A stretch of DNA of 39,823 nucleotides from a virus (lineage: Duplodnaviria > Caudoviricetes): positions 1 through 39,823 of IMG/VR virus record IMGVR_UViG_3300024996_000021; one strand, written 5' to 3'. Both the position numbers and the translations under genes were made by a program. The notes under the pieces are model-generated. The model was not told the DNA's origin. It worked only from the letters and a program-made list of their open reading frames with translations, and ran no database searches. Shown piece after piece: positions 3,336 to 39,341 of this stretch. The first letter of the stretch is position 1; every line of letters begins with the position of its first letter.

Positions 3336-4235
3336 ATGATTACTACAGCATTTAAACAAAAGATTTTGGCCGCAATGCCTGCGCATCGCGACAATTTTCA
3401 AGGCACCGACGTAGCTTATGCAAAAACGCTTGGCATCAACAGCAGCATCTACAGCCGGCTGCACAAGGGAGATACCGAACAGGTGCTCTCTGACGCAAAG
3501 TGGCTGCATATAGGCAGATTATTTGACATCATGCCCGACGGCGAACAATGGAATACCGCGCGCACGGAGGTATATGCGAAAGTGGAAAACGACCTGCAAA
3601 ACTGTAAGAGGAATGGCGCAGCGCTGATAATGGTGGATGAATGTGGCATAGGCAAAACCTATTGTGCAAAGCATATCATCAGGCGTATGAAAAACAGCTT
3701 TTATCTGGATTGCAGCCAGGCGAAAACGAAACAGCAATTTATCAGATTATTTGCCAAAACCATTGGCGTAGATAACCGTGGAAGATACCAGGATGTGAAA
3801 GCCGATTTGAAATATGCGCTGCTATACATGGAGAAGCCATTGATAGTGCTGGACGAGGCCGGCGACTTGGATTATGCAGCATTTCTGGAACTAAAAGAAC
3901 TGTGGAATGCAACCGAAGGTACATGCGGATGGTATATGATGGGCGCTGACGGCTTACGCGCAAAAATAGAGAGAGGCATCAATTACCGGAAGGTGGGTTA
4001 CAGAGAAATATTTGACCGGTTCAACAACAAATACATGAAGGCTGTGCCGATGGGTGCCGAAAACAAAGAGGCCTTCTATGTGAAGCTGATCGGCGATGTA
4101 TTAGTGGCCAACCTTCCGGCATCGGAGCAAAAGAAATTGACAGTATATGTAAAAAAGATACTGGCGACCGACGGCGGAGAGCACGGTACGCTGAGGCGGG
4201 CAAAGACAATTGTAAAATTATTAAAAGCCGCATGA
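3336..4235 (+). CDS. MuB-like AAA+ transposition ATPase
   Basis: Walker A variant DECGIGKT, Walker B LIVLDEAG, N-terminal HTH. Confidence 0.9.
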   Translation: MITTAFKQKILAAMPAHRDNFQGTDVAYAKTLGINSSIYSRLHKGDTEQVLSDAKWLHIGRLFDIMPDGEQWNTARTEVYAKVENDLQNCKRNGAALIMVDECGIGKTYCAKHIIRRMKNSFYLDCSQAKTKQQFIRLFAKTIGVDNRGRYQDVKADLKYALLYMEKPLIVLDEAGDLDYAAFLELKELWNATEGTCGWYMMGADGLRAKIERGINYRKVGYREIFDRFNNKYMKAVPMGAENKEAFYVKLIGDVLVANLPASEQKKLTVYVKKILATDGGEHGTLRRAKTIVKLLKAA

Positions 4236-4261
4236 ATAACCCTACAACCACATGAAATTAA

Positions 4262-4885
4262 ATGCTACCAAGAGCCTTAACCCCTGCGAATATTATAAAT
4301 AAAAAGAGAATGGTACTTGACTTTAAAAATGAATGGTTTGCTGCCTTTGGCCGTGTAGAGAGCAACAGCCGCATGCTCGTATGGGGTGGCAGCGGGCAGG
4401 GTAAGAGCCGGTTTGTACTGCAACTGGCAAAGTACTTAAGCAACTTTTGTCGGGTAGCATACAACAGCCTGGAGATGGGCGATAGTCTGGCGCTGGGCGA
4501 TGCCCTGGTAGCCGAAGGGATAGATAAGAACATCATCATCCTGAATAGAGAAACCATAGAACAAGTAACCGCACGGATGAAGAAGCGCAAAAGCCCGGAT
4601 GTTTTGATTGTGGATTCTCTGCAATACTTCCGGCATAATGACGGTAACGGGATGAATTATAAGAACTACATCAAATTTAGCCATAGCCTGGCTGATAAGA
4701 TGCTCATTTTCGTAAGCCATGCAGATCATAAGGAGCCAGCCGGACGGGTAGCCAAAAGCGTGCGCTACGATGTTGACGTGAAGATCATGGTGCAGGGGTT
4801 TAAAGCCTTTGTAACCAGCCGTTACGGTGGCGGGGCGCCGATAACCATTTGGGAGGAAGGGGCAAAGGAATATTGGGGTATTTAA
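4262..4885 (+). CDS. Second P-loop ATPase (RecA/Sms-like fold)
   Basis: Walker A GGSGQGKS, Walker B VLIVDSLQ. Confidence 0.85.
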   Translation: MLPRALTPANIINKKRMVLDFKNEWFAAFGRVESNSRMLVWGGSGQGKSRFVLQLAKYLSNFCRVAYNSLEMGDSLALGDALVAEGIDKNIIILNRETIEQVTARMKKRKSPDVLIVDSLQYFRHNDGNGMNYKNYIKFSHSLADKMLIFVSHADHKEPAGRVAKSVRYDVDVKIMVQGFKAFVTSRYGGGAPITIWEEGAKEYWGI

Positions 4886-13010: not shown

Positions 13011-13098
13011 TATCTTTGTAGCCGTAAGGTAACTATATCCGGTTATCGGACTGGTTTGTCGCCAGTGGCCGGTAATCCATGCGTAGTTACCTATTTTT
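13011..13098 (+). ncRNA. Candidate small RNA convergent on the MuF-nuclease gene
   Basis: TATCTTTG -7 box, then nested stems AGGTAACTA/TAGTTACCT and CCGGTTA/TGGCCGG, then a T-tract. Confidence 0.4.
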
Positions 13099-14397
13099 AT
13101 ATAGCAAAGCTCCTTTTCTTAAATCTTCATAACGTCCCGGCTTTAACCGGTACAATGTTTCCGCAACCAAACCAGATCGCTTATCGGTCACAATCAACGC
13201 GATAGGATTATTTGCATAAAATTTCAAATAGATTCTTATCAATTTCCCATTTTCCCGAAATGACCATATTTCGTCAGGATTTTGTACAAGCTCCGGGAAG
13301 GTGTGTGCATATTCCTTCCGGTTATCGTCGTTCTGAAAAATGTGCGATTTAAAATATTTTCTGTCATACTTCTTTTGTGTCGTCGGATTGATATCGAAAA
13401 GTATTTTTGAATTTATTTTATCTTCTAATATAATATTGCCGTCGTCGGCGCTGAATGTTTTCCAAACTTTTAAAAAGTCGCCATTCGGCATATCCGGTGC
13501 ATCCATTAAAATCTTTTTTACCGGCGGTAAACCGTAGTTTTTAACAGCCGTCAGGGATTTCGTTTTCGGCGTCCCATCTGGATTTTTGCCCAGTGATGAA
13601 TATACCGGATGATCGTTTGAAAGGATTTGTTTTTCTACAGCCTGATTATTTGCGAACAAAGGGTTTGTGGCGGCATCTTTCAGCATTTTTCCGCCTTGTT
13701 TTTCCGCCGATGCATTGGCGGCAATACCGGGAATAATGTGGCATCTGCAATTCCAATCTAATGGCGGCCAGTATGATTTCCATGCAGGTGAATCTGCTTT
13801 CATGGTCAGTCCATCCAGGAGCGCATGCGATTCTCTTACCCGGTCATCGTGAACGGTGGAATATTGCAGATATTCAACGTCGTTTGATTGAAAATCTTCC
13901 CATTGTTTGGCGCTTTGTGCAGAAGCTAAAGCAGTATTATATTCCGTTCGCAGATGATGCACATTGAATTCATAACCTTTATCCATAACTTTATTTCTGA
14001 ACTGCTCAAAACTGCGAATGGATCCGTCCTCCCGCACCATCATGTTTGTAAAATATCGCATTTCATAAATACTCTTGGCCGCGCTGAATGTATGAATACT
14101 GTCCTGCAAATACGCGCCGAGTAAATTACGCGGATCCTCATAAGCGAAAGATGTGCCGCCAAGTCCTTTACTCATTGCTTCCATAAGCGTATCCGCAGTT
14201 TTGCGATACATTTCCGGGGGAATAGAACCATCGTTCATTTTCTTTGAATACAGGTTGGATGCAATCTGATCCAATATATCATCCCAGGGTCCTTCATCGG
14301 CCAGGGGGGGAATGGTTATTCCTCCGCAATCCGGACAGGTATGTTTATATATATCACCCAGGTCGGACAGCCCAGCGTCTAAGGCTGGGCCGGGTCG
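13087..14397 (-). CDS. MuF (gpF) minor head protein with C-terminal PBECR2-like nuclease domain; likely entered by -1 frameshift from the portal
   Basis: LRTEYN, DDRVRESH, PPLDWNCRC (MuF); ELVQNPDEIW (PBECR2-like); frame is open to 14403 with no ATG upstream of the annotated TTG at 14274. Confidence 0.85.
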   Translation of the reverse strand, partial: RPGPALDAGLSDLGDIYKHTCPDCGGITIPPLADEGPWDDILDQIASNLYSKKMNDGSIPPEMYRKTADTLMEAMSKGLGGTSFAYEDPRNLLGAYLQDSIHTFSAAKSIYEMRYFTNMMVREDGSIRSFEQFRNKVMDKGYEFNVHHLRTEYNTALASAQSAKQWEDFQSNDVEYLQYSTVHDDRVRESHALLDGLTMKADSPAWKSYWPPLDWNCRCHIIPGIAANASAEKQGGKMLKDAATNPLFANNQAVEKQILSNDHPVYSSLGKNPDGTPKTKSLTAVKNYGLPPVKKILMDAPDMPNGDFLKVWKTFSADDGNIILEDKINSKILFDINPTTQKKYDRKYFKSHIFQNDDNRKEYAHTFPELVQNPDEIWSFRENGKLIRIYLKFYANNPIALIVTDKRSGLVAETLYRLKPGRYEDLRKGALLYKNR

Positions 14398-14403
14398 AAA
14401 AAA
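14370..14403 (-). promoter_or_regulatory. Programmed -1 ribosomal frameshift signal
   Basis: T-TTT-TTC heptamer, 6-nt spacer, stem GCCCAGC-N7-GCTGGGC. Confidence 0.7.
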
Positions 14404-15680
14404 TCAGCCAGTTGAGTGCGGAGTTTATCCCAGAATCCCAGATCGTTCAGATTTTTTGAAACTTCTTTTTTGGGGCCCGATTTCGGATATGCCTGTGATT
14501 GGGATAATGATTGATTGAACATCTGTTTATCTTCCTCCATTTTCTTTTTGAGCTCATCATAATTCTTAGGCTTTGGAATAGCATAGGTGTCGTACCAATA
14601 ATCATCATCCACGGGCACGTTGCTTTTCACCTGCATATCAATTTCCAACCTGGTTTTAAGTTCGTCGAGGTCTATTTCCTTTTCATAAACAAAACGTCCT
14701 TCGGGGTAGCCATAGCTTTTCAGGATGTTTTTGAAAACATCTGAATTGAGCATATTGGCCATGTATTTCAGATCGCTCTTGGTAACTTCTAATTGTTGTT
14801 TGCCATGTTCTTTGCTTTGAGCATAACCGGAGCTTTTACTTGCATTCGCTGTTTCGGTAACCGTGAGCACAATAATGCTCATTTCTTCATTCATTGCGGT
14901 TTTAAAACGATCCTGAAGCTGGCCATCTGCATTTGACACCTTTCCATCCTTCATGTCAAAGTCGGCCTGTTTCGGAATCATCAAAGCCAGACTGCTACCA
15001 CTTTCATCCAATACCTGTTGAAGTTCAATTTTTGTTTTGGTATCATAGGCATCGTATTTTATCACGCGCACCGGTTGACCGAATATTTCGCAATACTGTG
15101 CCCAGTCGGCCAGATTGCCGCGTTTGTACACAGCATAATAACTGCATTTCAGAAGAAAACCATAATCATTCTTACCGCCGATTACCCATAGAAATGGATT
15201 TGTATCGTACGGAAAACCTTCCGATCCGTTTTGTTCCTTAGCTATAATCTTCAAATCAGGTTTGATGTGCTTTCTGGGAATTTCTATCCATTCAAATTTT
15301 TTACCCGGGATAAATTCCATCCCGGAAAGTCCCCACGCCTCCGATTCCATGATTTTTCGTTGCATATCACGAAAGGTATTGGATTCAATGAGCGTGTCCA
15401 TATCCTCAATCCGTATTCCCGCTGTATCTTCATAATGCAGGGATTTATTCAGCACAGCATCCACACGTTTCTTCCATATTCCGGTTAAATGGCCATCCAG
15501 CATCACATCATCATAAAGATCATAAAGGGGCACTCGGTTTGCGTAAGCAACCGATTCGGCATATATCTGAGCAGTACGGACTTTCTGAATATCTTTTGGC
15601 GACCGGTCGGCATTGCGCAATATGATCTGGTTGACTATAATGCCTTTGGGTTCCGTTTCTTTTACAATCTTTGTGGGCAT
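14379..15680 (-). CDS. Portal protein (DUF935 / Mu gp29-like)
   Basis: LYDDVMLDGHL...KRVDAV, WAQYCEIFGQP, GYAQSKEH. Confidence 0.9.
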   Translation of the reverse strand: MPTKIVKETEPKGIIVNQIILRNADRSPKDIQKVRTAQIYAESVAYANRVPLYDLYDDVMLDGHLTGIWKKRVDAVLNKSLHYEDTAGIRIEDMDTLIESNTFRDMQRKIMESEAWGLSGMEFIPGKKFEWIEIPRKHIKPDLKIIAKEQNGSEGFPYDTNPFLWVIGGKNDYGFLLKCSYYAVYKRGNLADWAQYCEIFGQPVRVIKYDAYDTKTKIELQQVLDESGSSLALMIPKQADFDMKDGKVSNADGQLQDRFKTAMNEEMSIIVLTVTETANASKSSGYAQSKEHGKQQLEVTKSDLKYMANMLNSDVFKNILKSYGYPEGRFVYEKEIDLDELKTRLEIDMQVKSNVPVDDDYWYDTYAIPKPKNYDELKKKMEEDKQMFNQSLSQSQAYPKSGPKKEVSKNLNDLGFWDKLRTQLADFFDPAQP

Positions 15681-22917: not shown

Positions 22918-23337
22918 ATGATACGAAACGATGACACAAAAGGCACATCCATCAAAGCGATACGCGGCCGGGAAAAACAACAAAAAGAACAGGAGCTGCG
23001 TGAAAAATGCATTGCCCTGGCAAATGAGCGTTACGGTCAGGAAGATGTGGTGAAGATGAGCAACGCCAACAAAGGCATTTTCTTCTTACCGGTAATGGAT
23101 GAAGACGGCAATATAGAAAAAATGGCTTTGATGAAACCAATTGACAGAAACATCCTGTCGTATGCCAGCACAAAAATTTCTGACGAAGGATTATATGCGT
23201 TTTTAGAAGCCGCAATGCGTGAATGCTTCATCACAGGCGATAAAGAAATTTTGGATGATGATGAATACTTTATTCCGGCTGCCAACAGCTTTAATAAAAT
23301 ATTGGAAGGCAAAAAGGCGAGCCTGCTAAAAAGATAA
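22918..23337 (+). CDS. Tail assembly chaperone
   Basis: Between tube and tape measure; GDKEILDDDEYF. Confidence 0.75.
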   Translation: MIRNDDTKGTSIKAIRGREKQQKEQELREKCIALANERYGQEDVVKMSNANKGIFFLPVMDEDGNIEKMALMKPIDRNILSYASTKISDEGLYAFLEAAMRECFITGDKEILDDDEYFIPAANSFNKILEGKKASLLKR

Positions 23338-23519
23338 AAGAAGCATACGAAAAGACCGATATCAGCAGTATTGGTTTTTTTGAGACGATGCTGATGAAAT
23401 ACCTGCCAGGTCTTGATGCTTCTAAAATCAGCGATTCTGAATTTATAATGCGCGTTGCGCACCTTCAGCGGATCCGGGAGATGGAGAAAGCTGAGCTGAT
23501 TAAAAAACTGATGCGATGA
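23328..23519 (+). CDS. -1 frameshift extension of the tail assembly chaperone (gpGT-like)
   Basis: Open -1 frame KIKEAYEKTD...LIKKLMR fills the gap; its TGA overlaps the tape-measure ATG. Confidence 0.65.
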   Translation, partial: KKIKEAYEKTDISSIGFFETMLMKYLPGLDASKISDSEFIMRVAHLQRIREMEKAELIKKLMR

Positions 23520-31637: not shown

Positions 31638-34600
31638 ATGAAACACATTTTAACAGCGATATTAATCCTGCTTGCATATTGTTCAAAGGCACAAGTTGGC
31701 AATGTTGATCAGTTCAGGATAAAAACAAAACTCACGCTCGGTGACAGATCAGTAACGAAACTGTACAACGACAGCACGTTTGCAGCGGCTGATTCGCTGA
31801 GTTTACCGACGTCGTGGGCGGTGAAAGGGTTTGTGGCCAACAAACTATCACAAATGACAATTGCGACCGGAAAAACTTATGTGGTGAGTTCGCAATCGGA
31901 GATGCTTGCGCTCAGCGCTAACGTGGGCGATGTCGCTGTGAGGACTGATTCATCTGCAAGTTTTATTTTACAGGTTACACCGGCGAGCACACTGTCAAAT
32001 TGGGTACTGTTGTTATTCCCGAATAATGTACCGAGTGTATTCGGACGATCAGGCAATGTGGTCGCGCAAGACGGCGATTACGATCATACCCAGATATCTG
32101 GTGTTGATTCATTGTTTGCTCTGAAACAAAACAACATCATCAACCTTGGCGATACTGTTTTATATCTGAAAAAACGGGATAGCTCTATTTTTGCAACTGT
32201 GTATCAAAATAATATGAAAGCGAATAATTCGGATGTAGTTCATAAAACCGGCGATGAAACAATAGCAGGAACGAAGACATTTGCAGATTCGCTAAAAGTG
32301 CCGACGCGCACTCAAGCAGATAGCTCGGCGAATGCAGCAAATACAGCTTGGATTAAAGCACAGAGCTACATGAAGTCAATCGGGAAATTACCATCAGGCT
32401 CAATACCATTTTCAGACGCAAACGGCATATTGACATGGGATGCAGCAGGATTACTATGGGATGGATCAAACTTACGAGCCGGGCACGATGATTTTTACAG
32501 CACAACAGGACTTGGGTTAAATGGAAACAGAGCATACATAGGCGGTAGTGGTTTTGGCATGGTTGTGAAGACAACGGGTGGCAGGCCGATGGATGGTAGC
32601 AAGTCAATTATATTCTATAATAGTGATACAGAATATGGCCGGTTTTCGATGCGAACTGCATATGATAGCATGCTCAGGTTTACCTCCAGGATGGAAATAA
32701 TCCCGGGTACCACTAATAAATTTGATATAGGTTCCTCGTCGCTGCAATGGAATAATATTTACGCAAAGCAGTTCTATTTGAATGGCACATTATTATCACC
32801 AGTTTCGAACGAACAAATCAACCTATGGACTAACAAGCAAGACCAACTCAATGGCACAGGATTCGTGAAGGCAAACGGAAGCACTATCACTTATGATAAT
32901 TCAACGTATGCGACGCAATTGGCATTAAATGATACGGCAAGTGCATTGAGAGCTATTGCAGGGAGTGGCGGCGATATGTTCAAGTCCGTTTATGACCCAA
33001 CCAACATCTCTGGTGATGCTTTCAATTACAACAATCTTTATAATACCCCGAATCTGACTTTAAAGCTAAACATCTCTGATACATCTACAATGCTTTCAAA
33101 GTATCTGAGGAAGGTTGACACAACTGGAAAATGGCTTTCTGCATCCTATACTCCTTCATGGGGTAATATTACTGGTAAGCCGACTACACTCTCAGGATAT
33201 GGAATCACGGATGCTGTAAATACAACAGGAACACAGACTGTAGCAGGAACTAAGACCTTTTCAGCTTCAATGATCTATTTTAATAATATTCACGGGTTGA
33301 ATAGAGTTAGTCTTGGAAATGGAACATTTGAAAGTTTTAGTTTATTTTCTGATCCTACAAATAGTATCTTTGGTATAGGAGCAAATGCCTATCATGATCC
33401 TACAACGAACACTTACATAGTTCCTATTAAGTTTGCTTATGGTGGACACGGTGCAACGATTGAGGCGTCTCCAACCACAGGTATAAGAGCAATGTCAGTT
33501 GATTCAAACGGAGTTGCAACGAGATTAATTTCAGTCGATACTTCTGGAACTCTTAACTTACCTAAATTAAAATCTGGAGTTTCCGGCCAAGATTTTCTAA
33601 GAATTGATGTAAACAATGATGTTTTCAGGAACACACAATCGGAAGTGATTACTCATCTTGGTATATCTGCAAAGATGAACTACACGGATACATCTGCTAT
33701 GCTTTCTCCTTTGTGGAATAAAATAAATTCACAAACGACCGATACGGTTACGGCAAATACTCCTTTGCACATTGTTTTAAATCAGTCAACTAATAAACAG
33801 ACACTCTATGTTGATACAGCATCTGCAACTAAGGACGGTGCATTACTAAAGGAGGATTGGAGTACATTTAACGGGAAGCAGAATCAGATATTACTTACCA
33901 CGAATGGAACATCTGGAGCAGCTACACTGACAGGAAGTACGCTGAATATACCTCAATACTCTGGCGGTACTGGAGGAGTGACTAATCTTGCTCTTGGCAC
34001 TGCAACAACAACGACGCAACTTATTACAAACAGCAACGGAACAGGATTCACTCTCACTGCTGCAACAACGCTGAAAGCAGGATTATTAAGTTCTGACACG
34101 CAAACTATTGCAGGGAATAAGATATTTAATGGAAGTGTAACACTAAAGTCCGCAGCCGATGATGGTGCTGCTCTAGATAAGATTCTACAAGTCGATCCAA
34201 CAGGTATAATCAAGAGTAATACATTTTCAGACTTCCAATACAAGATAGGAGTTAACGATAGACCTAAGTTTACAGATTCGGTAACTGCAATTCAAACAGG
34301 TACAATGACACCTACGATGCTCGCCTCCTTAAATGGTAAGCAGGATAAACTAATAGCAATAACGAATCAAAGTAATAATTATACTCTTGCTCTTTCGGAT
34401 GCTAATGGAATGTTGCGAGAAGGATCGTCAGCAGCAACGACAGTAACTGTTCCTACAAATGCTACAGTTGCTTATCCGATAGGAACACAAATCAATATTA
34501 TGCAGGCAAGTACGGCACAGGTGACGATTGCAGGAGCAGCAGGAGTAACGATAAATAGTGCAGACGGGAAGAAGAAGACAAGGGTTCAGTTCAGTACGGT

Positions 34601-34658
34601 TACCCTCGTGAAGATGGCTACTGATACATGGTTATTGTTTGGAGATATATCAAATTAA
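31638..34658 (+). CDS. Tail-fibre-like protein with Sec signal peptide
   Basis: MKHILTAILILLAYCSKA|Q; fibre motifs KPTTLSGYGITDA, HKTGDETIAGTKTF, SVFGRSGNVVA. Confidence 0.8.
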   Translation: MKHILTAILILLAYCSKAQVGNVDQFRIKTKLTLGDRSVTKLYNDSTFAAADSLSLPTSWAVKGFVANKLSQMTIATGKTYVVSSQSEMLALSANVGDVAVRTDSSASFILQVTPASTLSNWVLLLFPNNVPSVFGRSGNVVAQDGDYDHTQISGVDSLFALKQNNIINLGDTVLYLKKRDSSIFATVYQNNMKANNSDVVHKTGDETIAGTKTFADSLKVPTRTQADSSANAANTAWIKAQSYMKSIGKLPSGSIPFSDANGILTWDAAGLLWDGSNLRAGHDDFYSTTGLGLNGNRAYIGGSGFGMVVKTTGGRPMDGSKSIIFYNSDTEYGRFSMRTAYDSMLRFTSRMEIIPGTTNKFDIGSSSLQWNNIYAKQFYLNGTLLSPVSNEQINLWTNKQDQLNGTGFVKANGSTITYDNSTYATQLALNDTASALRAIAGSGGDMFKSVYDPTNISGDAFNYNNLYNTPNLTLKLNISDTSTMLSKYLRKVDTTGKWLSASYTPSWGNITGKPTTLSGYGITDAVNTTGTQTVAGTKTFSASMIYFNNIHGLNRVSLGNGTFESFSLFSDPTNSIFGIGANAYHDPTTNTYIVPIKFAYGGHGATIEASPTTGIRAMSVDSNGVATRLISVDTSGTLNLPKLKSGVSGQDFLRIDVNNDVFRNTQSEVITHLGISAKMNYTDTSAMLSPLWNKINSQTTDTVTANTPLHIVLNQSTNKQTLYVDTASATKDGALLKEDWSTFNGKQNQILLTTNGTSGAATLTGSTLNIPQYSGGTGGVTNLALGTATTTTQLITNSNGTGFTLTAATTLKAGLLSSDTQTIAGNKIFNGSVTLKSAADDGAALDKILQVDPTGIIKSNTFSDFQYKIGVNDRPKFTDSVTAIQTGTMTPTMLASLNGKQDKLIAITNQSNNYTLALSDANGMLREGSSAATTVTVPTNATVAYPIGTQINIMQASTAQVTIAGAAGVTINSADGKKKTRVQFSTVTLVKMATDTWLLFGDISN

Positions 34659-34710
34659 AAAGATAGTGAAGATAGTTTTTTCCATAAGGTGCAGTTTTAC
34701 GGTGATAGGA

Positions 34711-36549
34711 ATGATACGGAGGGCATTTCTATGCCTTCCTATTTTTTTTCTCTTTGGAATTGGAGTTGCAGATGGACAAATGATTCCGGGTGTGGTGGCA
34801 AGTTCAATACACGGAGTGCCTGACACGTCAATACTGACACTGAATTATGGAGGCACTTATAAAAGTGAACTATCGCTCAAATTCAACAAAGCCACCACAC
34901 TGACACTGAATGGTGGTACATGGGTAAGCACAGGAACAGCAACACGAACTTACACGGCTAATGTATTGGCTAAAGATTCAATCATTTACACGAATACTGT
35001 TTCGTTACAGATACCGTCTTTAGATGTTACAGAGATTGATGATAATATTAATAATCTTGATACGTCCTATCTTGATGTTAGCAGGTTGGTTAATTTGACT
35101 AAAATTCAATTCACATCAAGTAAAACAAAGATTTTAGGAAGTGTAGCCGGACTTACTTCACTGACGTTTCTGAGTGTGCAGGGCAGTAACACCCTAACAG
35201 GCTCAGTAGCTGGACTTACTTCACTGACGGCTCTGAGTGTGTGGGGCAGTAACACCCTCACCGGATCGGTGGCTGGACTTACTTCACTGACGAATCTGAG
35301 TGTGCAGGGCAGTAACACCCTAACAGGCTCAGTAGCTGGACTTACTTCACTGACGGCTCTGAGTGTGTGGGGCAACAACACCGTCACCGGATCGGTGGCC
35401 GGACTTACTTCACTGACGTATATGGGTGTGGGGGGCAGTAACACCCTAACAGGCTCAGTAGCTGGGCTTACTTCACTGACGAATCTGCTTGTGACGGGCA
35501 ACAACACCGTCACAATTGATTCAGTTGTGCAGATGAAAGGTCTTAGCTATCTGCAAACAAATTACCCCGTTAATGTGAATCAAATCCTTGCCGATTTTGT
35601 GGTTAATAAAGATCAACCTAAACCCAGAATAGACAGAAGCATATTACTTTCCGGCAACGCTGCCAACTATGCGACAGGTCAGGGGTTGACGGATGCAGCA
35701 TTTTTGAGGACATATAAGTCACCTAACAATACAGGCCCCGCAGTGTGGACAGTAACACTTGCACCGACACCGGTTGATACAAATGCAACAGCATTCAAAA
35801 CAGCGACCGGAATAACAGGTAGTGATGCAAATAACATTGATTCTTTAATTAAGATGCTAAAGGATTCATCCCTCTGGTCTTACGCTCAGGTGATTTACCC
35901 CCTCACGGGTGGAACATCGGCGAGCATGGCATATAACCTGAAAGATACATCCACATTTAAAATAGCATGGACAGGTACGGGAACATACTCTACATCTGGC
36001 TATACCTCTGGCAATGTTTCCAATTATGGTAACACAGGATGGATTCCGTCTGTTCAGGTAACTTCAAATCATCTTAGCTCAATGGGTGTTTATTCAAGGA
36101 CGGATTTTACAGGTACCTACGTTGACATAGGAGCACTATCAAATAATGGAGTAGATAACTACTTTCAGATTTATTCGAAGATGGGAACAACATCTTATAT
36201 GAATATGAATACCACCGGAGTCGGTCAATCGCAAACAAATTCATCTTCATCCAGAGGTTGGTTCTTTGCGAGCAGGAGCGAGAAAATAACATCCAATCAG
36301 GATACTTATACACAGATTGATGGCACTCAAATTCAGTCTGGAACATATACCTCTGGTAACGATGGAATAGTAACACTTCCTGTTTATCTGGGAACTCAGA
36401 ATAACAAAGGAACATCATCGTTTGCAAGTCCACGACAACTATCATTTGTGTGGCTTTCTAACCAACCACTCACAAGAGCACAGGGAGCAACGCTTTATCG
36501 TATTGTTCAAAAATATATGACACTCAGAGGAATTCAGGTAACAAATTAA
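34711..36549 (+). CDS. Signal-peptide protein with LRR block and C-terminal lectin/LamG-like domain (receptor-binding candidate)
   Basis: Hydrophobic leader ending ADG|Q; six 21-aa LRRs; start uncertain (34639-34711). Confidence 0.75.
   Translation: MIRRAFLCLPIFFLFGIGVADGQMIPGVVASSIHGVPDTSILTLNYGGTYKSELSLKFNKATTLTLNGGTWVSTGTATRTYTANVLAKDSIIYTNTVSLQIPSLDVTEIDDNINNLDTSYLDVSRLVNLTKIQFTSSKTKILGSVAGLTSLTFLSVQGSNTLTGSVAGLTSLTALSVWGSNTLTGSVAGLTSLTNLSVQGSNTLTGSVAGLTSLTALSVWGNNTVTGSVAGLTSLTYMGVGGSNTLTGSVAGLTSLTNLLVTGNNTVTIDSVVQMKGLSYLQTNYPVNVNQILADFVVNKDQPKPRIDRSILLSGNAANYATGQGLTDAAFLRTYKSPNNTGPAVWTVTLAPTPVDTNATAFKTATGITGSDANNIDSLIKMLKDSSLWSYAQVIYPLTGGTSASMAYNLKDTSTFKIAWTGTGTYSTSGYTSGNVSNYGNTGWIPSVQVTSNHLSSMGVYSRTDFTGTYVDIGALSNNGVDNYFQIYSKMGTTSYMNMNTTGVGQSQTNSSSSRGWFFASRSEKITSNQDTYTQIDGTQIQSGTYTSGNDGIVTLPVYLGTQNNKGTSSFASPRQLSFVWLSNQPLTRAQGATLYRIVQKYMTLRGIQVTN
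34718..34739. other. Hairpin with TTCT loop (copy 3)
   Basis: GGAGGGCAT-TTCT-ATGCCTTCC then TATTTTTTTTC. Confidence 0.55.
35137..35514 (+). repeat. Six tandem 63-bp coding repeats (GSVAGLTSLTxLxVxGxNTLT)
   Basis: Units start at 35137, 35200, 35263, 35326, 35389 and 35452. Confidence 0.95.
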
Positions 36550-36551
36550 AA

Positions 36552-39341
36552 ATGAAAAAACTCATCATAACATCCCTTTTCTTTGTAGCGACTACATTAT
36601 CTCTACAGGCGCAGACTGTCGGGAAGGCGGTAAAGGTTCCGACATTCAGTTCTTACGGAGAACCGATGTGGCTTCAACTTCCACAAGGATACACAACATC
36701 TATAAAGTATCCACTCCTTATATTTATTCATGGGGTTGGCGAGGCAAGCCCACACGCATGGAACGATCCTATCTATATGAACGGCGATGACCTTTATAAG
36801 ATTTATACGTCCACGACAGCGGGTGGTCCCTCTTATTTCCGTGAGCAAGGATGGAATGGGAAAGCGTATAATCCAGTTACGTTAGATTCTACGTCATTCA
36901 TTATTATTTCTCCACAGGCAACCGGCTCTGGATGGTTTAAAGCGACGGATATAAAATACTTCCTCAAATACATGGCTGCAAATTATTCGGTTGATACAAA
37001 CAGGATTTACTTTACAGGGCTATCCGCTGGTGGTAGTGCAGAAGTTGGTTATTTGATAGGCACTCACGATGTAACGAAAGCAGATAAACCATACCTTCCG
37101 GCAGCATGGGTTCCTATGAGTGAAGCCTATGGTACTTCATATCAATGGATGGCAGACAGCATCATGCACGATAGCATTCCTGCATGGGGCTTTGGAGATG
37201 CCTCTGGTGCCGATGTACATGGGAAAAACACAAAGGATTTGATGGATGAAATGAATAACGATGTTGCAGGCTATACAAGGTTCACTCAGTACTCTGGTGG
37301 TCATTGTTGCTGGGCTAACTTTTACATTCCGTCATATACAAGTACGATCTGGGGAGGTAATGCCATGAGCATTTATTCCTGGATGCTCACAAAATCACGA
37401 ACTCCACAGGCTCCAACGCCACAGCCACCGACAGTTAATGCAGGAACAGATCAAACACTTTCAGCGAGTGCTACTTCTACAAGTTTAACAGCCACTGCAA
37501 CACCATATTCAGGTACGACAATAACGGGCTATTCCTGGACACAGGTTTCGGGTTCGTCTGCAACAATAGTTTCTTCAACATCAGCAACAACAAGCATAAC
37601 AGGACTTACAACCGGAGTGTATGTTTTCAGGATGACAGTAACCCAATCAGATTCTAAAACTGCATTTGACGATGTACAGGTGACTATTCCTTCATCACCG
37701 GCACCAACTGTTAATGCAGGTACAGACCAGAATATAACACTAACGGCCACAACGGTGACAGGAACAGCAACGGCAGGAAGTGGAGCCACAATCACTTCTA
37801 CTTTGTGGACGCAAATTTCTGGTACAGCAGCTACAATAACTTCTCCGAGTAATCTATCTACAACAATAACAAACTTATCAAATGGTACTAACGTCTTTAG
37901 GCTTACTGCTACTCAAAGTGATGGTCAATCTACCTCAGATGATATTCAGGTTATCGTTAACGCTGATACTGGTAGTTGTGGCTGCACCTATACTCTTGAT
38001 CCAGCTACTCCTGACAGTGCAACCTACTGGAAATCTAAAGCCGCAACCGTCGCTCCAGGATCGGTTATCTGCCTCAAAGCGGGAAGGTTTAACCACCTCA
38101 ACTTTGACGGATTAAAGGGTACAAGGGAGAATCCTATTATCATAAAAAATTGCGGTGGGCTTGTGACAATATCTTCCGGCTTTACCTATATGTTTCGTGT
38201 GGTTAATTCCTCATGGGTAACGGTGGATGGAAGCGGTGATCCTAACGTATTTTATGGTATTCAAACGAAGGCATGGAACGGAACACTTACGAAGGCTCCA
38301 TTTAGCTTTAATGGTCATCTGACAGGAATTAAGATAAATAATGTTTGGGGTGATTCTACAACTGCATGGGGACTACAGATTAAGACAACCCCTTCGGATT
38401 TTGATTCCCTAACTTGGGCACCATACGGAACGATTCATGATGTAGTCGTAAGAGATACTAAGATGACGAATACAGGCAGTGAAGGATATTACATTGGTCA
38501 GACAGACGACAACAATCCTGTGAAGACCGTAACAACTGCCGGAGATACTATTACGATAAATGTTGATGGGGTGCAAATAGACACTCTCAACTTCTACAAC
38601 AATATCGCAATGAATACTCAATGGGATGGGATGCAGATTTCAGCAGCTAAATCTTTTGTGGTACATGATAATTTCATCAAAAACTATGGTATTGAGAATA
38701 CTTCTTCCCAGATGGACGGTTTCGTTTTGGGTGGTAAGTCTTATGGTGTTTTCTACCGTAACATCATTGATTCGGGGAACTCAACAGGAATACATCTGAT
38801 GGGTTATAACAATGGAGTACCTCCTACTTTGATTTACAATAACCTCGTTATCAATTCAGGATGGGATGGAATTAATGTTGATGACAGACCGAATGTAAAT
38901 AAGTACCTCAATCAGAAATATTATATTCTTAATAATACGATTGTCCATCCGGCAAGATATGGAGCTATCTTTGATAATTCAGGAGGAACGGTCGCACCAG
39001 GAAACAAATTCAATAATAACATCATCGCAGGGGCGGTAAATACACCAGTCGTGTTCGGATCATCAATATTACCTTCTTACGTTGATACGACAAACAATGC
39101 CATCTTCTCAACAGTAGCAGCGGCAAACTTTGTTGGTGGCGGTGATTATCATTTACAATCTTCATCTCAGGCATTCAACAAAACAGGATATAATCAGAGT
39201 GCAATATTTTTAGACGATTTAGATAAGAATTCAAGAAATGGTGCGTATGGAGTTGGAGCTTACAGGACGTTTATCCCATCGATTGTTCCTGTGATTATCA
39301 GGCAGTTCTTAATTTTAAAAGGTAAAATGATTTTTAAGTGA
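36552..39341 (+). CDS. Secreted multidomain protein: alpha/beta hydrolase + 2 PKD/Ig-like + right-handed beta-helix
   Basis: Signal peptide ending LQA|Q; LIFIHGVGE and GLSAGG; two PTVNAGTDQ...WTQ..G repeats; NN/DG-rich beta-helix. Confidence 0.85.
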   Translation: MKKLIITSLFFVATTLSLQAQTVGKAVKVPTFSSYGEPMWLQLPQGYTTSIKYPLLIFIHGVGEASPHAWNDPIYMNGDDLYKIYTSTTAGGPSYFREQGWNGKAYNPVTLDSTSFIIISPQATGSGWFKATDIKYFLKYMAANYSVDTNRIYFTGLSAGGSAEVGYLIGTHDVTKADKPYLPAAWVPMSEAYGTSYQWMADSIMHDSIPAWGFGDASGADVHGKNTKDLMDEMNNDVAGYTRFTQYSGGHCCWANFYIPSYTSTIWGGNAMSIYSWMLTKSRTPQAPTPQPPTVNAGTDQTLSASATSTSLTATATPYSGTTITGYSWTQVSGSSATIVSSTSATTSITGLTTGVYVFRMTVTQSDSKTAFDDVQVTIPSSPAPTVNAGTDQNITLTATTVTGTATAGSGATITSTLWTQISGTAATITSPSNLSTTITNLSNGTNVFRLTATQSDGQSTSDDIQVIVNADTGSCGCTYTLDPATPDSATYWKSKAATVAPGSVICLKAGRFNHLNFDGLKGTRENPIIIKNCGGLVTISSGFTYMFRVVNSSWVTVDGSGDPNVFYGIQTKAWNGTLTKAPFSFNGHLTGIKINNVWGDSTTAWGLQIKTTPSDFDSLTWAPYGTIHDVVVRDTKMTNTGSEGYYIGQTDDNNPVKTVTTAGDTITINVDGVQIDTLNFYNNIAMNTQWDGMQISAAKSFVVHDNFIKNYGIENTSSQMDGFVLGGKSYGVFYRNIIDSGNSTGIHLMGYNNGVPPTLIYNNLVINSGWDGINVDDRPNVNKYLNQKYYILNNTIVHPARYGAIFDNSGGTVAPGNKFNNNIIAGAVNTPVVFGSSILPSYVDTTNNAIFSTVAAANFVGGGDYHLQSSSQAFNKTGYNQSAIFLDDLDKNSRNGAYGVGAYRTFIPSIVPVIIRQFLILKGKMIFK

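What the first reader, a model, noticed from the sequence alone, without database searches (positions are those of the whole stretch)
13087..15680. Predicted -1 frameshift making a portal-MuF-nuclease fusion
Seen (minus strand): the portal ends GCT GAT TTT TTC GAC CCG GCC CAG CCT TAG. T-TTT-TTC (14403-14397) is an X-XXY-YYZ heptamer, followed after 6 nt by a GC stem GCCCAGC-N7-GCTGGGC. The -1 frame is closed by TGA immediately before the heptamer, then open through RPGPALDAGLSDLGDIYKHTCPDCGG... into the whole MuF ORF. There is no ATG upstream of the weak annotated TTG start. Known: heptamer + 5-9 nt spacer + stem is the standard -1 frameshift layout. Inference: a minority of portal subunits carry MuF plus a nuclease (~864 aa fusion), which would fix stoichiometry and place the effector at the DNA exit vertex.
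Basis: partly seen in the sequence, partly recalled or inferred. Interest (0 to 1): 0.85.

Follow-up and report, generated by a model that had tools for sequence, protein, structure and literature searches.

The report
Frameshift joins phage portal to MuF
This Mu-like prophage's portal gene ends in a slippery run of U's and an RNA hairpin that its Bacteroidota relatives keep at the same spot, so some ribosomes very likely slip back one base and make a portal carrying the head protein MuF with a predicted RNase tip, while relatives with the two genes fused in frame keep a slippery site where the same slip would cut MuF off.

Summary
Observation confirmed; interpretation largely supported. The window is a Mu-like transposable prophage. 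Its portal gene ends T-TTT-TTC, 6 nt, then a 7-bp GC hairpin; the -1 frame runs 436 codons through MuF and a PBECR2 domain (864 aa in all). Among close portal relatives, 88 of 88 distinct junctions with an out-of-frame MuF have it in the -1 frame with T-TTT-TTY and a hairpin; 0 of 54 portals without MuF have the signal. The spacer is 6 nt in all 59 representatives, the stem covaries, and conserved MuF residues lie upstream of any shared start codon. In-frame portal-MuF fusions occur in three lineages; P. gingivalis phages keep the full signal inverted, so a slip would give the short portal. Hankyphage p00 carries the signal too. Not shown: the fusion protein, its share, nuclease activity; 29 of 82 relatives have no effector tip. 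No paper describing it turned up in ten searches; this scan noted it before on five other genomes. Side lead: a candidate small opposite-strand RNA follows intact RNase tips.

The parts
14379..15680 (-). Mu-type portal gene, 433 aa (0-frame product)
   Evidence: Pfam Portal_Mu E 5.6e-58; PHROG 113
14397..14435 (-). Conserved portal tail motif ending ...LADFF, just before the slip; follows a low-complexity linker; absent from most portals that lack a downstream MuF
   Evidence: F427 and F428 invariant in 59 aligned portals; C-termini
14397..14403 (-). Slippery heptamer T TTT TTC (tandem tRNA-Phe slip predicted)
14391..14396 (-). 6-nt spacer
   Evidence: stem starts at this distance in 59 of 59 representatives
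14370..14390 (-). Predicted stimulatory hairpin, 7 bp (9 by RNAfold), portal stop in the loop
   Evidence: covariation at stem positions 5-7
14275..14397 (-). -1 frame segment upstream of the first possible start codon, with conserved L-x-x-L/I-Y, C-x-x-C and L-A-D motifs
   Evidence: same motifs in natural in-frame fusions
13087..14397 (-). MuF-PBECR2 reading frame entered after the slip (436 aa)
13732..13995 (-). Phage_Mu_F domain
   Evidence: Pfam E 4.9e-15
13096..13437 (-). PBECR2 domain, predicted RNase; His in the first helix and Thr in the last strand are present
   Evidence: Pfam E 2.9e-14; alignment; criteria from PMC5512222 section 19; weak fold matches
13011..13098 (+). Candidate small opposite-strand RNA: TATCTTTG promoter-like element (13011-13018), long hairpin, T-rich tail at the MuF stop; possible RNA immunity for the RNase tip (side lead)
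   Evidence: the promoter consensus TAnnTTTG is recalled, from no call

Best explanation
The portal and MuF frames overlap at a conserved slippery heptamer and hairpin, and ribosomes very likely undergo a programmed -1 shift there, so that one message would yield a plain 433-aa portal and an 864-aa portal-MuF-PBECR2 fusion. Shown: the signal, its conservation, the frame relation, the lack of a shared start codon, natural fusions. Inferred: two tRNA-Phe slip from UUU UUC to UUU UUU while the hairpin stalls the ribosome; both products co-assemble in the portal ring (dodecamer and inward-facing C-terminus are recalled textbook knowledge), so the slip rate sets how many MuF copies enter the head and ties them to the DNA exit vertex. 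The variable tip (here a predicted RNase) would travel as cargo. What selection appears to keep is the mixture of long and short portal, since relatives with the genes fused in frame keep a slip site whose shifted frames close within a few codons.
For: Close clade (portal profile E<1e-95), distinct junctions: 88 with MuF in the -1 frame, 7 fused in frame, none in +1 or as a separate same-frame gene; 88 of 88 have an in-frame heptamer plus hairpin of -8 kcal/mol or better, 0 of 54 portals without MuF do; all 88 have T TTT TTY inside the open -1 frame. In 59 representatives below 80% portal identity: synonymous sites are fixed (base before the FF codons T 59/59 against 59% GAT for Asp; first Phe TTT 59/59 against 63%; second Phe TTC 58/59 against 37%), spacer 6 nt in all. 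Stem position 5 is C-G 28, A-T 15, G-C 13, T-A 2, unpaired 1; Watson-Crick pairs at positions 5-7: 139 of 177 against a permuted mean of 61, maximum 89 in 5000. Y17 (52/59), C21 (51/58), C24 (42/48), L32 (54/59) of the -1 frame lie upstream of the window's first start; no column among the first 75 has ATG in more than 12 or any start codon in more than 21 of 59. Natural fusions carry the same motifs right after FF; PHROG 35074 is one profile that matches both window ORFs in order. Four P. gingivalis phage records keep T TTT TTC + 6 nt + hairpin inside a fused gene, with the -1 frame closing after 19-24 codons. L053/L195, L158, L171 carry long T runs (9-10) with -1 and +1 frames closing in 1-7 codons. 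Fusions sit at three separate places on the portal tree. More distant portals use other heptamers at the same spot: A AAT TTT with hairpin, G GGA AAG, A runs.
Against: No junction peptide, ribosome profile or RNA read was available. The share of fusion is unknown. A few relatives (about 4 of 59, hankyphage among them) have an ATG 12-15 codons after the slip, overlapping or near the portal stop, so independent initiation may add to or replace the shift there. The structure model gives low confidence (pLDDT 45-67) for the first 40 residues after the slip, so a structural role for them is not shown. Relatives are not independent, the 3' arm in the covariation count was placed by best match, and the tree has only FastTree supports and a midpoint root. 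The signal is not general to Mu-like phages: Pseudomonas H72, Burkholderia phiE255 and Flavobacterium lotta8-1 have MuF in the +1 frame with an annotated start of its own, and in distant portals only 13 of 17 with MuF in -1 have a heptamer and 6 of 17 a hairpin.
Confidence: 0.85

Rival explanations
1. Transcriptional slippage: RNA polymerase adds a U on the T run, so some messages carry the fusion in frame; the hairpin has another role.
For: Some relatives have runs of 9-10 T or A with no good hairpin (L053, L158, L171, the A-run clade), the kind of run on which polymerases slip (recalled).
Against: In the window and 58 of 59 representatives the run is only six T and ends in a fixed C; codon phase, a fixed 6-nt spacer and a covarying 3' stem fit a ribosome. 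G GGA AAG and A AAT TTT variants are not homopolymers. It may hold for the long-run lineages only.
Confidence: 0.06
2. MuF is made as a separate protein by re-initiation or translational coupling at a TTG, ATG or rarer start; the hairpin tunes this.
For: TTG at 14274 and ATG at 14238 exist and the well-folded part of the model starts near residue 39; a few relatives have an ATG at the portal stop; SPP1 gp7 is a free protein that binds the portal (PMC5576092 passages).
Against: No start codon is shared among relatives; conserved residues precede the available starts; the -1 frame always opens at or before the heptamer, right at it in 17 of 59; synonymous sites of the heptamer are fixed.
Confidence: 0.05
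3. The FF motif is kept for protein reasons and the hairpin is an mRNA stability or processing element; MuF is expressed some other way.
For: The residues before FF are conserved as protein; the hairpin brackets the stop in most loci.
Against: Protein constraint does not fix synonymous codons (elsewhere in these portals 3 of 17 FF pairs read T-TTT-TTY); the hairpin keeps its distance to the heptamer, not to the stop, which lies 3 to 48 nt away; no terminator pattern there; both features vanish when MuF is absent.
Confidence: 0.03
4. A sequencing error or a broken fused gene.
For: Homopolymer runs are error-prone and in-frame fusions exist.
Against: 88 junctions from many assemblies, including isolate genomes and cultured phages, share the frame relation; contigs at depth above 100 show no indel (possibly the source data); restoring the frame needs a dedicated signal that a decaying gene would not keep.
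Confidence: 0.01

Closest known systems
Tail assembly chaperone G/GT -1 frameshift (lambda, TP901-1; passages of PMC4493119)
   Same: Slippery heptamer at the 3' end of a morphogenesis gene gives a short and a long product in a set ratio; one distant relative here uses the same G GGA AAG.
   Different: G/GT are chaperones outside the virion; here the products are the portal itself and the extension is a MuF cargo domain with a variable tip; signal polarity is reversed in some lineages.
Frameshift-extended capsid and tail proteins (Listeria phages, mentioned in PMC4493119 passages; T7 gp10B, Lactobacillus A2 recalled)
   Same: A share of subunits of a virion protein gains a C-terminal extension by frameshifting.
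   Different: Those extend capsid or tail tube subunits, mostly with surface domains (recalled); none found for the portal or for an internal MuF effector.
MuF polymorphic toxins (PMC5576092, PMC11699363 passages) and SPP1 gp7
   Same: muf right after portal, N-terminal MuF, interchangeable C-terminal domains (PBECR2, CdiA_C-like, ART, glutamine deamidase, none); gp7 binds portal at 1-2 copies per capsid.
   Different: Described as separately translated proteins; 'frameshift' occurs 0 times in the main text of both papers. No protein immunity gene follows the window's MuF.
In-frame portal-MuF and portal-PBECR fusions (Microbacterium clusters EA3, EA5, EA8, EB, PMC7302621 passages; PMC5512222 section 19)
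   Same: Same domain order in one polypeptide.
   Different: Reported as plain gene fusions; no recoding or mixed products described in the passages seen.

Membership tests
Programmed -1 ribosomal frameshift (bacterial type) | X XXY YYZ heptamer in the upstream frame | tested here: met
   T TTT TTC 14403-14397; 88 of 88 relatives
Programmed -1 ribosomal frameshift (bacterial type) | 3' structure 5-9 nt downstream | tested here: met
   6-nt spacer, covarying stem
Programmed -1 ribosomal frameshift (bacterial type) | Open, conserved -1 frame without its own shared start | tested here: met
   about 4 of 59 relatives have a nearby ATG
Programmed -1 ribosomal frameshift (bacterial type) | Frameshift product demonstrated and dependent on the signal | not testable with these tools
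   Hankyphage gel-slice table does not resolve it
Mu-like transposable phage head module | Transposase, transposition protein, terminase, adaptor, Portal_Mu, MuF, neck, Mu-like protease, capsid | tested here: met
MuF polymorphic toxin | MuF domain downstream of portal with a variable C-terminal domain | tested here: met
MuF polymorphic toxin | Adjacent protein immunity gene | tested here: not met
   87-nt gap to the neck gene, longest ORFs 15-17 codons; a candidate small RNA lies there instead
MuF polymorphic toxin | Toxic activity of the tip | not testable with these tools
   none
PBECR (BECR-fold) RNase | [quoted passage not shown] | tested here: met
PBECR (BECR-fold) RNase | BECR fold by structure comparison | tested here: inconclusive
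   Helix + antiparallel strands in the model; matches to CdiA-CT 7m5f, colicin D tRNase 5znm (Z 4.9, rmsd 3.0, 78 aligned), BrnT only at Z 4.7-5.0 and Foldseek E>0.1, searched with the whole model
G/GT tail chaperone frameshift family | Located between major tail and tape measure genes, chaperone products | tested here: not met
   The site is in the portal gene

The most novel reading that the evidence does not exclude
A reversible recoding switch builds a mixed portal ring in which a few subunits carry a polymorphic MuF effector into the head for release and ejection with the DNA; lineages flip its polarity or swap ribosomal for polymerase slippage but keep both products; and RNase-type tips are held in check by a small opposite-strand RNA rather than by an immunity protein.
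Probability: 0.3. Interest if true: 0.9.

Novelty: new variant of a known kind. Interest (0 to 1): 0.76.

Why it matters
How MuF proteins and their toxin tips get into the phage head at a few copies has been explained only by binding to the portal (SPP1). A covalent, ratio-controlled portal fusion is a different answer and is directly testable in cultured phages: hankyphage p00, Elizabethkingia TCUEAP3 and P. gingivalis phages carry the signal. It would add the portal, usually treated as a ring of identical subunits, to the frameshifted virion proteins, mean that MuF genes of this clade are annotated with wrong starts (TCUEAP3's is annotated about 100 codons late), and give a natural library of frameshift signals for Bacteroidota. 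The inverted polarity indicates that the mixture itself is selected.

Tried and rejected
Literature: ten full-text searches gave no paper describing a portal-MuF frameshift; the library lacks most subscription papers and supplements are not searched, so absence is not proven. Rfam: no match in the window at gathering scores, one chance-level match at E 2.6. Sequencing runs: no RNA holder listed; only contigs, which cannot show slippage variants. Hankyphage virion mass spectrometry (PMC12135933 S6 Table): portal 20 peptides, MuF 3 peptides, both in the 250-85 kDa slice where a ~940-aa fusion would run, but small proteins (Gam, adaptor) are there too, so it neither supports nor refutes. A mixed alignment meant for folding a natural fusion misplaced the MuF rows and was not used; no fusion or complex was folded. 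A zinc site from the post-slip Cys pair could not be shown (low pLDDT). Fold searches gave no significant match. The hairpin as an intrinsic terminator was rejected (T run precedes it). Rows dropped: duplicates by 80-nt junction (209 distinct rows kept of the 242 loci then held; L136 and L153 had no portal hit; L241 was checked apart); no-MuF loci with under 600 nt downstream; the search for related loci returned only the best 80 of 320 viral and 80 of 146 genome matches.

Full report
Setting. The window is a Mu-like transposable prophage on one contig of a complete genome: transposase, transposition protein, terminase, adaptor, portal, MuF, neck, protease, capsid and tail genes. Its closest named relatives are Bacteroidota. 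The head-connector genes run on the minus strand: terminase, adaptor, portal (15680-14379), MuF frame (14403-13087), neck.

Observation. The -1 frame holds Phage_Mu_F and PBECR2 domains. Alone the site is not striking: fold z-score -1.2, and the bare pattern occurs four times in the host genome, like its control. Within the window it is the only one of 47 in-frame heptamers in long ORFs with a strong hairpin behind it.

Conservation. Portal relatives end in ADFF plus a few residues; the two Phe are invariant in 59 aligned portals. Loci were fetched with patterns from the portal core, not from the tail, and from a phylum-wide Pfam search and phage records. After removing duplicates, 209 junctions remained. 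In the close clade, 88 have MuF in the -1 frame, 7 are fused in frame, none has MuF in +1 or as a separate same-frame gene, and 54 with enough downstream DNA have no MuF. All 88 carry an in-frame heptamer plus hairpin; 3 of the 54 have a heptamer and none a hairpin. All 88 have T TTT TTY within the open -1 frame. Among 59 representatives below 80% identity the synonymous positions are fixed far beyond codon usage, the stem begins 6 nt after the heptamer in every case while the stop lies 3 to 48 nt away, and the stem's inner pairs covary (four pair types at position 5; 139 of 177 Watson-Crick pairs at positions 5-7 against a permuted mean of 61). These sequences are kin, so the counts are not probabilities, and the 3' arm was placed by best match.

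No shared start. The -1 frame is conserved from the slip onward: L-x-x-L-Y, C-x-x-C, L-A-D (Y17 52 of 59, C21 51 of 58), all upstream of the window's first start codon, and no column of the first 75 has ATG in more than 12 of 59. About four relatives, hankyphage among them, do have an ATG near the portal stop. The AlphaFold model of the post-slip product is confident from residue 39 on (mean pLDDT 89) and not before, so the role of the first 40 residues is open.

Natural fusions and reversed polarity. In-frame portal-MuF genes fall at three places on a 110-sequence portal tree, each among -1 lineages (FastTree, midpoint root, no formal clade test). L158, L171 and L053 show the same motifs right after FF as the -1 product, and one PHROG profile covers both window ORFs in order. 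Four P. gingivalis phage records, annotated as 853-aa portals, keep T TTT TTC, the 6-nt spacer and the hairpin, and their -1 frame stops after 19-24 codons: a slip would give the short portal. L053/L195, L158 and L171 have long T runs without a hairpin, with both shifted frames closing in 1-7 codons. One distant fusion (L095) has a T7 run followed at once by a -1 stop. My reading (inference) is that both products are needed and the direction of the switch is secondary. More distant portals use other slippery words at the same place (A AAT TTT with hairpin, G GGA AAG, A runs), 13 of 17 with a heptamer and 6 of 17 with a hairpin. Pseudomonas H72, Burkholderia phiE255 and Flavobacterium lotta8-1 have MuF in +1 with its own annotated start, so the signal is not universal in Mu-like phages.

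The cargo. Of 55 post-slip products, 54 match Phage_Mu_F; 13 have PBECR2, 3 CdiA_C-like, one each an ADP-ribosyltransferase, a glutamine deamidase and a weak LPD3 match; by length 29 of 82 have no tip. The window's PBECR2 keeps the His and Thr named as the active-site pattern in PMC5512222 section 19; fold matches to colicin D, CdiA-CT and BrnT are weak. The nuclease is thus predicted, and is not the conserved point; the portal-MuF link is.

Mechanism. Shown: signal, frame relation, conservation, absence of a shared start, natural fusions. Inferred: tandem slip of tRNA-Phe from UUU UUC to UUU UUU at a hairpin-stalled ribosome; co-assembly of long and short subunits in the portal ring; MuF inside the head at the vertex (portal C-termini face inward and rings are dodecamers: recalled). 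SPP1 gp7 sits at one to two copies bound to the portal (PMC5576092 passages); a slip rate near 10-15% would give that number, but the rate is unmeasured and inverted lineages would give the opposite majority at the same rate. The linker before the FF motif could be cut by the head protease, as recalled for the C-terminus of the Mu portal; untested. Hankyphage virion mass spectrometry lists portal (20 peptides) and MuF (3) in a high-mass slice, but small proteins too, so it does not decide (PMC12135933 section 34 and S6 Table).

Rivals. Polymerase slippage fits the long-run lineages but not a six-T run with fixed C, phase and spacer (0.06). Independent initiation lacks a shared start (0.05). 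A stability hairpin with protein-driven FF does not explain fixed synonymous sites (0.03). An assembly error is excluded by conservation; contigs of two runs, possibly the source, show no indel (0.01).

Side lead. Behind intact PBECR tips lies a short gap with a reverse TAnnTTTG element (a Bacteroidota promoter consensus, recalled), a hairpin RNA and a terminator-like end at the MuF stop; effector-less and His-less MuF genes lack it, and with other tips the element often faces an opposite-strand ORF. In the window this is + 13011-13098. It has no Rfam match, the simple scan did not call the long hairpin a terminator, and it may be plain antisense control; an RNA antitoxin is the bolder reading.

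What is known. Seen as passages: G/GT and Listeria frameshifts (PMC4493119), MuF toxins (PMC5576092, PMC11699363), in-frame portal-MuF fusions (PMC7302621), the P. gingivalis phage paper, whose only 'frameshift' concerns spanins (PMC10367356), PMC5512222. None describes this frameshift, and ten searches found no paper that does; subscription papers and supplements other than the one table were not seen and could bear on this.

Verdict. Real feature, very likely a programmed -1 frameshift (0.85); a new variant of a known kind of recoding, at a new and important target, with reversed polarity in relatives and cultured phages in which to test it. Interest 0.76.

Noticed in passing
window 13011-13098 (+); L001, L020, L024, L027, L055, L160, L173, L213 and others: After MuF genes with an intact PBECR tip lies a gap of 71 nt or more (20 of 20) with a reverse TAnnTTTG promoter-like element (17 of 20; background 4% per 100 nt), a hairpin RNA and a terminator-like hairpin plus T run at the MuF stop. 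Effector-less MuF genes run straight into the neck gene (28 of 29); four related His-less PBECR genes also lack the gap. With other tips the same promoter faces an opposite-strand ORF of 63-134 codons in 12 of 29 (likely immunity proteins, as in hankyphage). Eight hand-picked RNAs share a covarying fold with a CTAAWC loop. Candidate RNA antitoxin; may be plain antisense control.
   Followed up: partly
L235 (hankyphage p00, BK010646.1) 4260-4310; L237 (TCUEAP3) 4185-4235; L243, L244: Cultured and gut phages carry the same heptamer, 6-nt spacer and hairpin; hankyphage MuF ends in a glutamine-deamidase-like domain.
   Followed up: partly
L115, L118-L123, L137, L152: A distant portal clade ends in runs of 9-10 A with MuF in the -1 frame and no steady hairpin: likely a second, possibly independent, slippage signal.
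   Followed up: partly
L053 and L195, portal codons 425-440: In-frame fusions keep a relic of the hairpin's 5' arm (GCCCAAC) after an expanded T run, suggesting descent from the -1 type.
   Followed up: partly
window 23300-23518 (+): The ORF before the tape measure gene ends in A-rich codons and an open -1 frame continues to the tape measure start: probably the usual G/GT-type tail chaperone recoding, with an imperfect heptamer (read by eye).
   Followed up: no
window 31638-39341 (+): Three large late genes with BppL_N, leucine-rich-repeat and PKD/beta-helix domains: candidate receptor-binding or cargo proteins.
   Followed up: no
L025, L030, L155, L170 and about 50 similar loci: A nested lineage has short portals (about 360-400 aa) with no linker, no FF motif and no MuF behind: MuF and the signal were lost together, so MuF is dispensable in these phages.
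   Followed up: yes
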